Positions 34,046-44,891 of a DNA stretch of 64,000 nt are shown piece after piece (within the stretch, counting starts at the first letter, position 1; every line of letters begins with the position of its first letter). Source of the stretch: Escherichia coli (GTDB lineage Bacteria; Pseudomonadota; Gammaproteobacteria; Enterobacterales; Enterobacteriaceae); the NCBI RefSeq assembly GCF_003018235.1, contig NZ_CP027437.1; one strand, given 5' to 3'. Below the pieces are notes generated by a model. The model saw only the letters and a program-made list of their open reading frames with translations. It made no database searches and was not told the DNA's origin. The position numbers and the translations under genes are program-made.

Positions 34046-36550
34046 ATGTCACAAACTATCGACCTGACCCTGGACGGCCTGTCCTGCGGTCACTGCGTTA
34101 AACGCGTGAAAGAAAGTCTCGAACAGCGCCCGGATGTTGAGCAGGCGGATGTGTCTGTCACTGAAGCGCACGTTACCGGGACTGCCAGTGCAGAACAGCT
34201 GATCGAAACCATCAAACAAGCGGGTTATGACGCATCTGTAAGCCACCCAAAGGCTAAACCGCTGGCGGAGTCATCAATCCCGTCGGAAGCACTGACAGCG
34301 GTTTCTGAGGCGCTTCCGGCAGCGACCGCCGATGACGATGACAGCCAGCAGTTGCTGCTGAGCGGCATGAGCTGCGCCAGCTGTGTCACCCGCGTACAAA
34401 ATGCGCTGCAAAGCGTACCGGGCGTCACTCAGGCACGGGTAAACCTGGCGGAGCGTACTGCGCTGGTGATGGGCAGTGCCTCCCCACAAGATTTAGTGCA
34501 GGCGGTGGAAAAAGCGGGCTACGGCGCGGAAGCGATTGAAGATGACGCTAAACGCCGCGAGCGCCAGCAAGAAACCGCCGTCGCTACGATGAAGCGCTTC
34601 CGCTGGCAGGCAATTGTCGCACTGGCGGTGGGTATCCCGGTGATGGTCTGGGGGATGATCGGCGATAACATGATGGTCACCGCTGACAACCGCAGCTTGT
34701 GGTTGGTTATCGGCCTGATAACCCTGGCGGTAATGGTTTTCGCCGGCGGGCATTTTTACCGCAGCGCATGGAAAAGCCTGCTGAACGGCGCGGCGACAAT
34801 GGATACGCTGGTGGCGCTGGGTACGGGCGTGGCGTGGCTCTATTCAATGAGCGTCAACCTGTGGCCACAGTGGTTCCCGATGGAAGCGCGACATCTTTAT
34901 TACGAAGCCAGCGCGATGATTATCGGTCTGATCAATCTCGGCCATATGCTGGAAGCGCGCGCGCGTCAGCGTTCTTCTAAGGCGCTGGAGAAATTACTCG
35001 ATTTAACCCCACCGACGGCGCGCCTGGTCACCGACGAAGGTGAAAAAAACGTGCCGCTGGCAGATGTTCAGCCAGGTATGTTACTGCGCCTGACGACCGG
35101 CGACCGTGTGCCGGTAGATGGTGAGATTACCCAGGGCGAAGCGTGGCTGGATGAAGCGATGCTGACGGGCGAACCTATCCCGCAGCAAAAAGGCGAAGGC
35201 GATAGCGTCCATGCCGGGACAGTGGTACAGGACGGCAGTGTGCTGTTTCGTGCCAGTGCGGTCGGCAGCCATACTACGCTGTCACGGATCATTCGCATGG
35301 TGCGACAGGCCCAGAGCAGCAAGCCAGAAATCGGTCAACTGGCGGATAAAATCTCCGCCGTGTTTGTGCCGGTAGTAGTGGTTATTGCGCTTGTCAGTGC
35401 GGCAATCTGGTATTTCTTTGGTCCGGCACCGCAGATTGTCTATACCCTGGTGATTGCCACCACGGTGCTGATTATTGCCTGTCCGTGTGCGCTGGGGCTG
35501 GCGACGCCGATGTCGATTATTTCCGGCGTCGGTCGTGCGGCAGAATTTGGCGTGCTGGTACGGGACGCCGACGCGCTGCAACGCGCCAGTACGCTCGACA
35601 CTGTAGTGTTCGATAAAACCGGGACGCTGACCGAAGGTAAACCACAGGTTGTCGCGGTAAAAACATTTGCTGATGTTGATGAAGCACAGGTATTGCGTCT
35701 GGCGGCGGCGCTGGAGCAAGGTTCCAGCCATCCTCTGGCACGGGCGATCCTCGATAAAGCAGGCGATATGCAGCTGCCGCAGGTCAATGGCTTCCGCACA
35801 TTGCGCGGGCTGGGCGTGAGCGGCGAAGCTGAAGGTCATGCGTTGTTGTTGGGTAATCAGGCGCTGTTAAATGACCAGCAAGTTGATACTAAAGCGATTG
35901 AGGCAGATATTTCAGCTCAGGCATCGCAAGGGGCAACGCCTGTGCTGCTGGCGGTTGACGGGAAAGCGGTAGCCCTGCTGGCTGTACGCGATCCATTGCG
36001 TAGTGATAGCGTGGCGGCGCTGCAACGCCTGCATAAAGCGGGATATCGTCTGGTGATGCTAACCGGGGATAACCCAACCACCGCCAATGCGATCGCCAAA
36101 GAAGCAGGGATTGATAAGGTGATAGCCGGGGTGCTGCCGGACGGTAAAGCCGAAGCGATCAAACGTCTGCAAAGTGAAGGACGTCAGGTGGCAATGGTGG
36201 GCGATGGCATTAACGACGCGCCAGCGCTGGCTCAGGCGGATGTCGGCATTGCAATGGGTGGCGGCAGTGATGTTGCCATTGAAACCGCGGCGATTACCCT
36301 GATGCGCCATAGCCTGATGGGTGTTGCGGATGCGCTCGCGATTTCCCGCGCAACGCTGCGCAATATGAAGCAGAACCTGCTCGGCGCGTTTATCTACAAC
36401 AGTATCGGTATTCCGGTCGCCGCCGGTATTTTGTGGCCGTTCACCGGTACGCTGCTTAACCCGGTGGTCGCCGGAGCGGCAATGGCGCTCTCGTCGATTA
36501 CCGTAGTGAGTAACGCCAACCGGTTACTGCGGTTTAAACCGAAAGAGTGA
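34046..36550 (+). CDS. copA: Cu(I)-translocating P1B-type ATPase CopA (834 aa)
   Basis: Two N-terminal GxxCxxC metal-binding domains (GLSCGHC, GMSCASC), CPC motif, DKTGT phosphorylation site, GDGINDAP. Confidence 0.97.
34246..34257 (+). other. Programmed -1 ribosomal frameshift site within copA (slippery C CCA AAG, then GGC TAA in the -1 frame), giving the 70-aa CopA(Z) chaperone
   Basis: Heptamer cccaaag at codons 68-69; a -1 slip reads GGC then TAA, ending a 70-aa product that is the first metal-binding domain; copA is reported in the literature to use this mechanism. Confidence 0.7.
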
Positions 36551-36977
36551 TTGGTATTTACTTAATGCGTTTGTGAGATCCAGTTCTTGTTGCGCTCCTT
36601 TTATGAGTCATGCCATATAAAGTGACTGGCGCAGGGAGCGCGCAGGGGGCGGCCAATCGCCGCCGCCCCTGCACCCCCGGGCTCTGGCGAACAAAATCGC
36701 CGCTGCGCGGTACCCTCAGCTTATCCCTTGCGGCTACCGGGTCGGGCGCGAGGTAACATCCCTGTAAAACGCGCCCTCAGCCCACATCCATGTGGGCTGC
36801 CCCGGCCTTCAGGGAACGCCTCGGCGATTTTGACGCCACCAACACCGGTGCAGTCTTTCGTTTCAAAGCAAAAACAATTTTTCGATCATATTTAAGCTAC
36901 CACTGAACAAGCCTCATAACTCCATTTGCGCCATCCCTCCCCGCGCGCTAGCATGATATTTCACAAAGGGAGGTCGT

Positions 36978-37772
36978 ATGGATCTGTTGTACCGGGTAAA
37001 AACGCTTTGGGCCGCGCTGCGCGGTAATCATTACACCTGGCCTGCTATCGATATCTCTCTTCCCGGCAATCGCCATTTTCATCTGATTGGCAGTATTCAT
37101 ATGGGCAGCCACGATATGGCTCCCCTGCCCACCCGTTTGCTCAAAAAGCTCAAAAACGCCGATGCGCTGATCGTCGAGGCGGATGTTTCCACCAGCGATA
37201 CGCCTTTTGCTAATTTGCCTGCCTGCGAGGCGCTGGAAGAGCGCATTAGCGAGGAGCAACTCCAAAATCTGCAGCACATTAGCCAGGAGATGGGCATTTC
37301 TCCGTCGCTCTTTTCTACCCAACCGCTGTGGCAAATCGCGATGGTTCTTCAGGCGACGCAGGCACAAAAACTGGGGCTGCGGGCAGAATACGGTATCGAT
37401 TACCAGCTATTGCAGGCGGCGAAGCAACAACATAAACCCGTGATTGAACTGGAAGGGGCAGAAAACCAGATTGCCATGTTGCTCCAGCTCCCTGACAACG
37501 GACTAGCGCTGCTGGACGATACGCTGACCCACTGGCACACCAATGCACGGTTGCTGCAACAAATGATGAGCTGGTGGCTGAATGCGCCGCCGCAAAATAA
37601 TGAAATAACGCTGCCTAATACGTTCAGTCAATCGCTGTACGATGTGCTGATGCATCAGCGAAATCTCGCCTGGCGGGACAAATTATGCGCCATGCCGCCG
37701 GGGCGCTATGTGGTCGCAGTCGGTGCACTACACCTGTATGGAGAAGGGAATTTGCCGCAGATGTTGCGCTAA
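36978..37772 (+). CDS. ybaP: TraB/GumN-family protein YbaP (264 aa)
   Basis: 264-aa ORF in the conserved position next to chiX and ybaK. Confidence 0.85.
   Translation: MDLLYRVKTLWAALRGNHYTWPAIDISLPGNRHFHLIGSIHMGSHDMAPLPTRLLKKLKNADALIVEADVSTSDTPFANLPACEALEERISEEQLQNLQHISQEMGISPSLFSTQPLWQIAMVLQATQAQKLGLRAEYGIDYQLLQAAKQQHKPVIELEGAENQIAMLLQLPDNGLALLDDTLTHWHTNARLLQQMMSWWLNAPPQNNEITLPNTFSQSLYDVLMHQRNLAWRDKLCAMPPGRYVVAVGALHLYGEGNLPQMLR

Positions 37773-43526: not shown

Positions 43527-44891
<1,365 letters not shown>

What the first reader, a model, noticed from the sequence alone, without database searches (positions are those of the whole stretch)
36551..36977. GC-rich, palindrome-dense 427-bp spacer where K-12 carries ybaQ
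From memory, K-12 has the 113-aa HTH gene ybaQ between copA and ybaP. Here the spacer contains no ORF of 60 aa or more; instead it has a GC-rich core (about 36630-36850) with several stem-loops (gcagggggcgg...ccgcccctgc; cccacatccatgtggg; ggcgaacaaaatcgccg pairing with cggcgattttg). Its composition is atypical for an E. coli intergenic region, suggesting a structured RNA, a foreign repeat element or a remnant of a replaced gene. The 113-aa XRE protein at 1137-1478 could be a relocated or paralogous counterpart.
Basis: partly seen in the sequence, partly recalled or inferred. Interest (0 to 1): 0.5.

Follow-up and report, generated by a model that had tools for sequence, protein, structure and literature searches.

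The report
Known TRIP1e / RRS repeat copy
The GC-rich, hairpin-dense spacer between copA and ybaP is a copy of an already published E. coli repeat (TRIP1e, the same element as the "replication risk sequence" RRS), sitting in a variable spot where most strains carry the ybaQ antitoxin gene, so it is real but already known.

Summary
The 427-bp copA-ybaP spacer has no ORF of 60 aa or more, a 65-69% GC core, and the three stem-loops described. K-12 carries ybaQ at this place instead.

The core (36589-36853, 265 bp) is not unique or foreign. It is 92-94% identical to repeats in nearly every E. coli genome, including three copies in K-12. It matches, to the base, the published TRIP1e repeat: 38 bp after the copA stop, 124 bp before the ybaP start, 265 bp long (Li et al. 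2024). TRIP1 is the same element as the 222-bp RRS of Pham et al. (2023, 2024), which triggers lagging-strand post-replication gaps.

There is no ybaQ remnant here. The 113-aa ORF at 1137-1478 is unrelated to YbaQ.

New side results:
- 92 copies from about 12 enterobacterial genera share a multi-hairpin fold with heavy compensatory change.
- The proposed G-quadruplex tract is not conserved outside Escherichia and its near relatives.
- The central domain resembles the Rfam TwoAYGGAY motif, always on the G-rich strand, but scores below threshold.
- The spacer has at least four unrelated alleles.

Verdict: already known, low interest.

The parts
34046..36550 (+). copA (834 aa), the left anchor gene. 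Homology with K-12 runs to about 36546, close to the stop codon.
   Evidence: ORF list; annotation of 99% identical genomes; blastn against K-12
36551..36588 (.). 38-bp AT-rich (34% GC) left flank specific to this allele. Not homologous to the K-12 spacer or to the short allele.
36589..36853 (.). TRIP1e repeat, 265 bp, 64.9% GC. The fifth-locus copy of the TRIP1/RRS family.
   Evidence: 93.7% identical to K-12 TRIP1a and 92.3% to TRIP1c. Position and length equal the published definition: 38 bp after copA, 124 bp before ybaP, 265 bp (PMC10888264).
36627..36848 (.). 222-bp core conserved across genera, equivalent to the RRS element of Pham et al.; 68.9% GC.
   Evidence: Klebsiella copies align to exactly this stretch at 82-87% identity; RRS length; GC
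36643..36673 (.). 5' GC hairpin gcagggggcgg-ccaatcgcc-gccgcccctgc.
   Evidence: sequence; folds; the arms covary between genera
36660..36679 (-). Counterpart of the published RRS G-quadruplex tract GGGGGTGCAGGGGGCGGCGG. Here it reads CGGGGGTGCAGGGGCGGCGG, with one G missing from the second run.
   Evidence: fuzzy match; motif from PMC11194060; G4Hunter 1.76 against 1.84 in the nearest relative L001
36686..36702 (.). 5' arm of the long-range closing stem (ggcgaacaaaatcgccg).
   Evidence: pairs with 36822-36837; 9 of its 13 pairs have changes on both sides (helices 1 and 2)
36822..36837 (.). 3' arm of the long-range closing stem (cggcgattttgacgcc).
   Evidence: helices 1 and 2; folds
36744..36776 (.). 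Hairpin gggcgcg...aca-tccc-tgt...cgcgccc. On the minus strand its loop reads AGGGAU.
   Evidence: helices 7-9; inner pair A-T changes to G-C in 34 of 92 copies
36778..36799 (.). Hairpin cagcccac-atccat-gtgggctg. On the minus strand its loop reads AUGGAU.
   Evidence: helix 10: 7 of 9 pairs with changes on both sides. The loop and some flanking bases were fixed by the search pattern used.
36694..36833 (-). Stretch that matches Rfam TwoAYGGAY (RF01731) below threshold.
   Evidence: 31.5 bits against a gathering score of 43, E = 0.013; same family and same strand in other copies
36854..36905 (.). 52-bp right flank specific to this allele.
   Evidence: no homology to K-12 or to the short allele
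36906..36977 (+). ybaP upstream region shared with K-12 and the other alleles; presumably the ybaP promoter and ribosome-binding site.
   Evidence: 97% identical to K-12; the promoter role is inferred, and no consensus promoter was found
36978..37772 (+). ybaP (TraB/GumN family, 264 aa), the right anchor gene.

Best explanation
The GC-rich core is TRIP1e, the copA-ybaP copy of the TRIP1 repeat family (Rudd 1999; Li et al. 2024). TRIP1 is the same element as the replication risk sequence (RRS) of Pham, Cox, Goodman and colleagues. Shown in the literature for the K-12 copies at lysO and dusC, and for copies moved elsewhere: when the fork unwinds the element, its G-rich strand folds into a very stable structure (a G-quadruplex plus hairpins) on the lagging-strand template. 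Lagging-strand synthesis stops there and restarts downstream, leaving a gap of up to about 2 kb that is loaded with SSB and RecA. The authors propose that this gap acts as a topological relief valve. Inferred for this copy: it has the same fold, it keeps 19 of the 20 bases of the G4 tract, and its G-rich strand (window minus strand) is the lagging-strand template. It should therefore create an extra gap hot spot, predicted to extend from the element towards ybaP and ybaK. Like other TRIP1 copies it can also serve as a substrate for recombination between copies; TRIP1a/1e and TRIP1e/1c rearrangements are published. It sits in a hypervariable intergenic slot that in most strains holds the higB-higA (ybaQ) toxin-antitoxin module or its remains.
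For: Identity: 93.7% to K-12 TRIP1a and 92.3% to TRIP1c over about 270 bp. The repeat is present in 5425 of 5426 complete genomes, median 3 places per genome. Coordinates and length match the published TRIP1e definition exactly. The whole allele occurs in 346 of 5426 genomes, against 232 of 6725 reported by Li et al. TRIP1 and RRS are equated in PMC11194060. The G4 tract is present on the minus strand with one G deleted. Orientation: in strain 1190 (same allele, 99% identical) the record starts at mnmG beside oriC and is reversed relative to K-12, and the locus lies at 3.57 of 4.90 Mb. The fork therefore crosses the window from right to left, and the minus strand is the lagging-strand template. 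K-12 TRIP1a and TRIP1c have the same polarity. Structure: DNA fold z-scores are -5.7 and -5.9. A 49-pair structure on 92 copies from about 12 genera gives 94.2% paired cells against 35-42% when partners are slid, 28 pairs changed on both sides, and 0 of 500 shuffles as good. Function: gap formation wherever an RRS is placed with the G4 strand as lagging template; reconstitution with purified replisomes.
Against: No experiment has been done on a TRIP1e copy. This copy has lost one G from the G4 tract, which lowers its G4Hunter score from 1.84 to 1.76. It lies about 1.08 Mb from dif (K-12 coordinates), not at the roughly 650-kb position proposed to matter for the Ter macrodomain. Only 6% of genomes have it, so it cannot be essential at this site. 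The orientation relative to replication was inferred from another strain with the same allele, because GC skew across the window is uninformative at -0.005. The exact G4 tract is absent from most copies outside Escherichia, so the G4 may not be the conserved determinant.
Confidence: 0.85

Rival explanations
1. The element is, or also encodes, a structured non-coding RNA of the TwoAYGGAY type, transcribed from the G-rich (window minus) strand. The conserved hairpin loops would bind a protein or nucleic-acid partner.
For: TwoAYGGAY (RF01731) is the only Rfam match at the element in the window and the best one in six other copies from Escherichia and Citrobacter. It is always on the element's minus strand, and four of the seven matches span the whole model. 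The architecture matches: a long closing stem around two adjacent hairpins with loops AUGGAU and AGGGAU. Psychromonas sequences in the original TwoAYGGAY alignment show the same AUGGAU, AGGGAU and AGGGAC loop variants. Covariation is strong. With RNA parameters the minus strand folds better in 92 of 92 copies, by 11.8 kcal/mol on average. A-C mismatches, which are G-U pairs on the minus strand, are scattered over 20 pairs, whereas G-T occurs in 7.
Against: All scores (26.8-36.6 bits) are below the gathering score of 43. Klebsiella copies gave no match at E <= 1, and Silvania and Leclercia copies gave none at threshold. No promoter-like site and no terminator-like site lie within the element on either strand. 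The G-rich strand would fold better on composition alone. Watson-Crick covariation cannot tell RNA from single-stranded DNA. Purified replisomes reproduce the RRS effect without transcription. No transcript data were available.
Confidence: 0.15
2. It is a non-autonomous mobile element, or a selfish repeat spread by recombination, that landed downstream of copA and has no function at this site.
For: Copy number varies from 1 to 8 places per E. coli genome. One K. pneumoniae chromosome has 13 places, including a direct tandem pair 437 bp apart. At aqpZ-lysO the element occurs in either orientation with unrelated flanks. Copies lie beside unrelated genes in different genera. Only 6% of genomes carry this copy.
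Against: No terminal inverted repeats or target-site duplication were seen when this allele was compared with the short allele, which is not an empty site. No transposase is associated. In E. coli 99% of copies sit at five fixed loci. The fold is maintained by compensatory changes across genera, which argues for selection on the structure.
Confidence: 0.2
3. It acts on the copA transcript as a 3'-end element, stabilising the mRNA or insulating it from ybaP, as REP elements do.
For: It begins 38 bp after the copA stop, with no terminator-like site in between. Most TRIP1 copies lie just downstream of a gene. The structure is very stable on the plus strand too.
Against: Orientation relative to the upstream gene is not constant. 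At alx-sstT the element is antiparallel to alx, and at aqpZ-lysO both orientations occur. No U-tract follows the hairpins. No expression data were available.
Confidence: 0.1
4. It is a decayed remnant of ybaQ or of the higBA module.
For: It occupies the slot where 89% of genomes have ybaQ.
Against: There is no nucleotide or translated similarity to ybaQ. The sequence is instead 92-94% identical to repeats at other loci.
Confidence: 0.01

Closest known systems
TRIP1 repeats of E. coli, type TRIP1e (Rudd 1999, Res Microbiol 150:653; Li et al. 2024, Genes 15:236, PMC10888264)
   Same: Same sequence family (92-94% identical to TRIP1a and TRIP1c). Same locus, same distances to copA (38 bp) and ybaP (124 bp), same length (265 bp), same GC range (62-65%), and the same rarity (3-6% of genomes).
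   Different: Nothing of substance. This copy lacks one G in the second G-run compared with its closest relatives. Li et al. do not mention that the allele excludes ybaQ.
Replication risk sequences RRS-lysO and RRS-dusC (Pham et al. 2023, NAR 51:5527; 2024, NAR 52:6392; Kusi-Appauh et al. 2026, bioRxiv)
   Same: The 222-bp core (36627-36848) is the same element. The G-rich strand is the lagging-strand template, as at lysO and dusC.
   Different: This is a third, ori-proximal site on the right replichore, about 0.4 Mb from RRS-lysO and about 1.08 Mb from dif, with no symmetric partner. 19 of the 20 G4-tract bases are kept. It has not been tested.
TwoAYGGAY RNA motif (Rfam RF01731; Weinberg et al. 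2010)
   Same: A long closing stem around two adjacent hairpins whose terminal loops read AUGGAU and AGGGAU on the G-rich strand. It occurs in gammaproteobacteria, in many copies per genome, with no fixed gene association.
   Different: Scores 27-37 bits against a gathering score of 43. The second loop is AGGGAU rather than AYGGAY in E. coli. TRIP1 is GC-rich whereas the known members are AT-rich. TRIP1 also carries an extra 5' GC hairpin. No function is known for TwoAYGGAY.
REP/BIME elements
   Same: Intergenic, palindromic, GC-rich, located downstream of genes, variable between strains, and implicated in topology (BIME-2 binds gyrase).
   Different: REP units are about 35 bp with hundreds of copies and share no sequence with TRIP1. 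TRIP1 is about 265 bp with 1-8 copies per genome.

Membership tests
TRIP1 repeat, type TRIP1e | High nucleotide identity to TRIP1a/TRIP1c over the full repeat of about 265 bp | tested here: met
   93.7% to K-12 TRIP1a and 92.3% to TRIP1c; Li et al. give 94% for TRIP1e against TRIP1a
TRIP1 repeat, type TRIP1e | Located 38 bp downstream of the copA stop and 124 bp upstream of the ybaP start; 265 bp long | tested here: met
   copA ends at 36550, the repeat runs 36589-36853, ybaP starts at 36978
TRIP1 repeat, type TRIP1e | 62-65% G+C | tested here: met
   64.9%
RRS (replication risk sequence) | Conserved 222-bp GC-rich core | tested here: met
   36627-36848 aligns to the K-12 lysO and dusC copies and to Klebsiella copies
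RRS (replication risk sequence) | G4-forming tract GGGGGTGCAGGGGGCGGCGG on one strand | tested here: inconclusive
   Present at 36660-36679 on the minus strand with one G deleted. G4Hunter is 1.76. G4 formation cannot be tested here.
RRS (replication risk sequence) | [quoted passage not shown] | tested here: met
   Inferred from strain 1190, which has the same allele and whose record starts beside oriC, and from synteny with K-12. It was not verifiable from GC skew of the window.
RRS (replication risk sequence) | Triggers lagging-strand post-replication gaps with RecA/SSB loading | not testable with these tools
   Needs ssGap-seq or a replisome assay
RRS (replication risk sequence) | Paired, inverted copies about 650 kb either side of dif | tested here: not met
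   This copy lies at the equivalent of K-12 0.51 Mb, about 1.08 Mb from dif, with no symmetric partner. It is an 'additional RRS' in the authors' terms.
TwoAYGGAY RNA (RF01731) | Score at or above Rfam's gathering threshold | tested here: not met
   31.5 bits against 43; other copies 26.8-36.6 bits; no match at threshold in 14 further loci
TwoAYGGAY RNA (RF01731) | Two hairpins with AYGGAY terminal loops enclosed by a closing stem | tested here: inconclusive
   One loop is AUGGAU, the other AGGGAU. Silvania and Leclercia copies have AUGGAU in both loops. Psychromonas members of the original alignment also show AGGGAU and AGGGAC. The closing stem is present and covaries.
ybaQ / HigA antitoxin gene or its remnant | Translated or nucleotide similarity to YbaQ (HTH_3 domain) | tested here: not met
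   Best tblastn E = 7 anywhere in the window; no blastn match between the two spacers

The most novel reading that the evidence does not exclude
The TRIP1/RRS core may be the enterobacterial branch of the TwoAYGGAY motif class. In that case the conserved, covarying multi-hairpin fold with its A(Y/G)GGAY loops, rather than the G-quadruplex tract, would be what the cell uses. The G-runs are lost in Citrobacter, Enterobacter, Silvania and Leclercia. An orphan 'RNA motif' known since 2010 from Psychromonas, Clostridia and gut metagenomes would then be a family of single-strand DNA (or RNA) elements that programme replication gaps, and the invariant loops would point to an unidentified binding partner.
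Probability: 0.3. Interest if true: 0.6.

Novelty: already known. Interest (0 to 1): 0.2.

Why it matters
For this window it matters little: the feature can be annotated as TRIP1e/RRS and closed. It does flag that this strain carries a natural extra RRS on the right replichore. That makes it a ready-made test of whether additional RRS copies create extra gap hot spots and alter topology, as engineered copies do. The cross-genus comparison adds two points relevant to the RRS field: selection has maintained the hairpin fold rather than the G4 tract, and the core resembles the orphan TwoAYGGAY motif.

Tried and rejected
- **ybaQ remnant:** rejected. There is no tblastn or blastn similarity.
- **ORF 1137-1478 as a YbaQ paralogue or XRE protein:** rejected. 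It has no Pfam domain, BLASTP finds nothing at E <= 100, and it is annotated as a hypothetical protein next to ybbJ.
- **Coding potential of the 48-aa and 55-aa ORFs inside the element:** rejected. A 1-nt indel difference between copies falls inside the 48-aa ORF at 36610-36756. Conservation of the 55-aa ORF was not checked.
- **Rfam membership:** only sub-threshold TwoAYGGAY matches. The microRNA-family matches to one Klebsiella copy reflect its perfect 25-bp palindrome.
- **Phage origin:** no match in 50,697 phage records.
- **Plasmid origin:** all 34 plasmid-database matches are classed non-mobilizable. Several are 4.8-5.4-Mb chromosomes filed as plasmids, and many others are fragments of several hundred kb.
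- **GC skew of the window for replication direction:** uninformative.
- **Looking for an empty site:** the short 171-bp allele is a different sequence, not this allele minus the repeat.
- **Wobble-pair asymmetry to decide the folding strand:** ambiguous. G-T cells outnumber A-C cells but come from two pairs, while A-C is spread over 20 pairs. RNAalifold gives -36.6 kcal/mol for the plus strand and -43.8 for the minus strand.
- **The 5' hairpin:** it could not be scored on the MAFFT alignment because the register differs between genera.

Full report
**1. The observation**

The window is E. coli. copA is at 34046-36550 (+) and ybaP at 36978-37772 (+). The 427-bp spacer contains no ORF longer than 55 aa.

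GC rises to 0.64-0.72 between 36600 and 36800, against 0.45-0.52 on either side. Both strands fold far better than dinucleotide shuffles: DNA parameters give z = -5.7 and -5.9, with 0 of 200 shuffles as good.

K-12 carries ybaQ here. Homology between the window and K-12 stops near the copA stop codon (36546) and resumes 71 bp upstream of ybaP (36906). In between, K-12 has 727 bp and the window has 359 unrelated bp.

**2. What it is**

The core is a repeat. A search with 36600-36860 finds it in 5425 of 5426 complete E. coli genomes, at a median of 3 places per genome and almost always unannotated. The whole copA-spacer-ybaP arrangement is found in only 346 genomes.

The other sites are aqpZ-lysO, yohP-dusC, alx-sstT and putP-efeU. 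The putP-efeU copy has an internal deletion.

A literature search identified the family. These are the TRIP1 repeats of Rudd (1999), re-surveyed by Li et al. 2024 (PMC10888264). Li et al. define five types. TRIP1e is 265 bp long, lies 38 bp downstream of the copA stop and 124 bp upstream of the ybaP start, and occurs in 232 of 6725 genomes.

In the window, copA ends at 36550 and repeat homology starts at GTTGCGCTCC at 36589. It ends at 36853, and ybaP starts at 36978. That gives 38 bp, 265 bp and 124 bp, an exact fit. GC is 64.9%, and identity to K-12 TRIP1a is 93.7%.

Pham et al. [quoted passage not shown] The corresponding core here is 36627-36848, which is exactly the part that aligns to Klebsiella copies.

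**3. How it most likely works**

For the K-12 copies the literature shows the following:
- With that strand as lagging-strand template, a gap of up to about 2 kb forms and is loaded with RecA and SSB.
- The effect follows the element to new genomic sites.
- Purified replisomes reproduce the gaps.

In the window the tract is on the minus strand at 36660-36679, with one G missing from the second run. The nearest relative, L001, has the full tract.

Direction of replication could not be read from GC skew, which is -0.005. It was inferred from strain 1190, which has the same allele at 99% identity in the same orientation. That record begins at mnmG beside oriC, reversed relative to K-12, and the locus lies at 3.57 of 4.90 Mb. 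The fork therefore crosses the window from ybaP towards copA, and the minus strand is the lagging-strand template. K-12 TRIP1a and TRIP1c have the same polarity.

The inference is that this copy is an additional RRS in the active orientation, about 0.4 Mb ori-proximal to RRS-lysO. The identity is essentially certain. The activity of this particular copy is inferred and untested.

**4. Related sequences and structure**

A distant search of the plasmid collection found Klebsiella and Citrobacter copies. One K. pneumoniae chromosome filed as a plasmid has 13 places. Phage records have none.

An exact-pattern scan of one genome per species returned 88 stretches. They come from Escherichia (albertii, whittamii and two unnamed species), Citrobacter, Enterobacter, Klebsiella, Raoultella, Leclercia, Silvania, Pseudocitrobacter, Kluyvera and Atlantibacter. 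None came from Salmonella, and a few short contigs are evidently contaminants. Only one, a 2.8-kb metagenome contig with 99% CopA, lies beside copA. TRIP1e was therefore seen only in E. coli.

On a 92-sequence alignment, a 49-pair structure drawn by hand gave these figures:
- 94.2% of cells form standard pairs, against 35-42% when the partners are slid by 1-3 columns.
- 28 pairs have changes on both sides.
- The covariation score is 0.357, against 0.04-0.07 for the slid controls.
- 0 of 500 shuffles reach the observed values.

The structure consists of a closing stem, a small hairpin, a second long-range helix, a junction stem and two hairpins. The loop of one hairpin and some flanking bases were fixed by my search pattern, so their invariance carries no weight. 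The covariation elsewhere does.

The 5' GC hairpin also covaries by eye: CAGGGGGCGG/CCGCCCCCTG, AAAGGGCG/CGCCCTTT and CCAGGGTGG/CCACCCTGG. MAFFT puts it in different registers, so it was not scored.

**5. Two observations beyond the papers read here**

First, the G4 tract is not conserved. The exact 20-mer occurs in 9 of 18 Escherichia copies and in five copies from other groups (two Pseudocitrobacter, one Kluyvera, one Enterobacter, one unclassified Enterobacteriaceae). The mean G4Hunter maximum on the G-rich strand falls from 1.78 in Escherichia and 1.65 in Klebsiella to 1.08 in Citrobacter and 1.18 in Enterobacter. A canonical four-run G3+ motif is almost never present. What is maintained is the hairpin fold.

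Second, the only Rfam match at the element in the window, and the best one in six other copies, is TwoAYGGAY (RF01731). It always falls on the element's G-rich strand, and four of the seven matches span the whole model. Scores are 26.8-36.6 bits, against a gathering score of 43. Klebsiella, Silvania and Leclercia copies were not reported.

The architecture agrees with the motif: a long closing stem around two adjacent hairpins whose loops read AUGGAU and AGGGAU. Psychromonas sequences in the original TwoAYGGAY alignment show the same AUGGAU, AGGGAU and AGGGAC loop variants. None of the 12 papers in the library that mention TwoAYGGAY is about TRIP1 or RRS, judging from the seven listed. This is a resemblance that fails the family's own threshold. 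I do not file the element as a member.

**6. Which strand folds**

With RNA parameters the G-rich strand is more stable in 92 of 92 copies, by 11.8 kcal/mol on average. RNAalifold gives -43.8 kcal/mol for the minus strand against -36.6 for the plus strand. A-C mismatches, which would be G-U pairs on the minus strand, are scattered over 20 pairs. G-T occurs in 7 pairs but with more cells, and two pairs account for most of them.

This leans towards the G-rich strand, the same strand that RRS work identifies. Composition alone could produce much of the effect. Watson-Crick covariation cannot separate RNA from single-stranded DNA.

**7. The locus**

ybaQ is present in 4834 of 5426 genomes. In Nissle 1917 it sits next to a frameshifted RelE/ParE-family toxin gene, so this is a higB-higA module of which K-12 keeps only the antitoxin.

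A search with the joined copA and ybaP flanks shows several spacer classes:
- 359 bp, with TRIP1e.
- About 525, 626 and 727 bp, with ybaQ and varying numbers of REP units.
- A short class in which copA stop and ybaP start are 171 bp apart, with neither ybaQ nor TRIP1e.

The short allele is not an empty site for TRIP1e. Its middle part is unrelated and contains a REP-like palindrome. All alleles share the same boundaries, at the copA stop and about 60-70 bp upstream of ybaP. The same pattern is seen at aqpZ-lysO, where the element occurs in either orientation with unrelated flanks. How the element reaches such slots is unknown. No terminal repeats or target duplications were seen.

**8.

There is no ybaQ remnant. 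The ORF at 1137-1478 is on the minus strand, has no Pfam domain, has no similarity to YbaQ, and is annotated as a hypothetical protein next to ybbJ in 1412 genomes.

**9. Verdict**

This is a real and highly structured feature that is already described in the literature under two names. Novelty: already known. Interest: low, 0.2. The most novel reading not excluded is that TRIP1/RRS belongs to the TwoAYGGAY class and that the fold and its loops, not the G4, are the functional determinant (probability about 0.3).

Noticed in passing
window 8083-28761 (-), with 5917-8079 (-) downstream: A 6892-aa ORF built from dozens of diverged tandem units of about 297-300 nt (60-85% identical). It looks like a giant repeat-domain surface protein and lies between the ybbJ side and the glsA/copA side of the window, where K-12 has only a few kb.
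   Followed up: no
window 1137-1478 (-): A 113-aa ORF with no Pfam match, annotated as a hypothetical protein beside ybbJ. The stretch 900-1700 is covered at 80% or more in 1412 of 5426 genomes. It is unrelated to YbaQ despite the equal length.
   Followed up: partly
window 36547-36905; L002 4153-4879; L103 605-775; L104 3193-4060: The copA-ybaP spacer has at least four unrelated alleles with the same boundaries: TRIP1e; orphan ybaQ plus a variable number of REP units; a higB pseudogene plus ybaQ (higA) in Nissle 1917; and a 171-bp spacer with a REP-like palindrome. By subtraction about 246 genomes have neither ybaQ nor TRIP1e.
   Followed up: partly
L006 2450-2800 versus L007 2430-2770 and L008: At aqpZ-lysO the TRIP1a element occurs in opposite orientations in different strains. 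The 40-65 bp on each side of it are also unrelated between the two forms, so the whole spacer was exchanged rather than simply inverted.
   Followed up: partly
L011 1550-1800 and 1987-2237 (K. pneumoniae CP125156.1): Two direct copies 437 bp apart downstream of pcaC. The same record has 13 places in all, so the family is much more abundant in Klebsiella than in E. coli.
   Followed up: no
L025 1-139 and 421-685: A 2.8-kb metagenome contig has TRIP1e next to copA and, about 280 bp away, the 3' part of a second copy in inverted orientation where ybaP should be. This is either a TRIP1-mediated rearrangement junction or a misassembly.
   Followed up: no
alignment A4, columns 45-100: The G-runs of the proposed G-quadruplex are replaced by AAAGGG, CCAGGG or TTAAGGG in Citrobacter, Enterobacter, Silvania and Leclercia, while the hairpin they sit in stays fully complementary.
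   Followed up: yes
L009 1856-1997 (K-12 putP-efeU, TRIP1b): The internal deletion of about 125 bp in TRIP1b removes exactly the TwoAYGGAY-like domain. Its ends lie at the short direct repeat GGCGAAC / GGGAAC, which suggests slippage or recombination between them.
   Followed up: no
L061 36-286 (Silvania hatchlandensis): This copy carries a 21-nt internal duplication that adds a third hairpin with the ATCCAT loop.
   Followed up: no
window 1017-1060 and 44810-44853: A 44-nt inverted pair, 86% complementary, with the sequence typical of REP units (GCCTGATGCGACGCT...). These are ordinary REP elements.
   Followed up: no
L014 2009-2066 (K. pneumoniae): In this copy the 5' hairpin is extended to a near-perfect stem of about 25 bp (GGAGCCCGGGGGTACAGGGGGCGGCC...). 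It draws spurious microRNA-family matches from Rfam.
   Followed up: no
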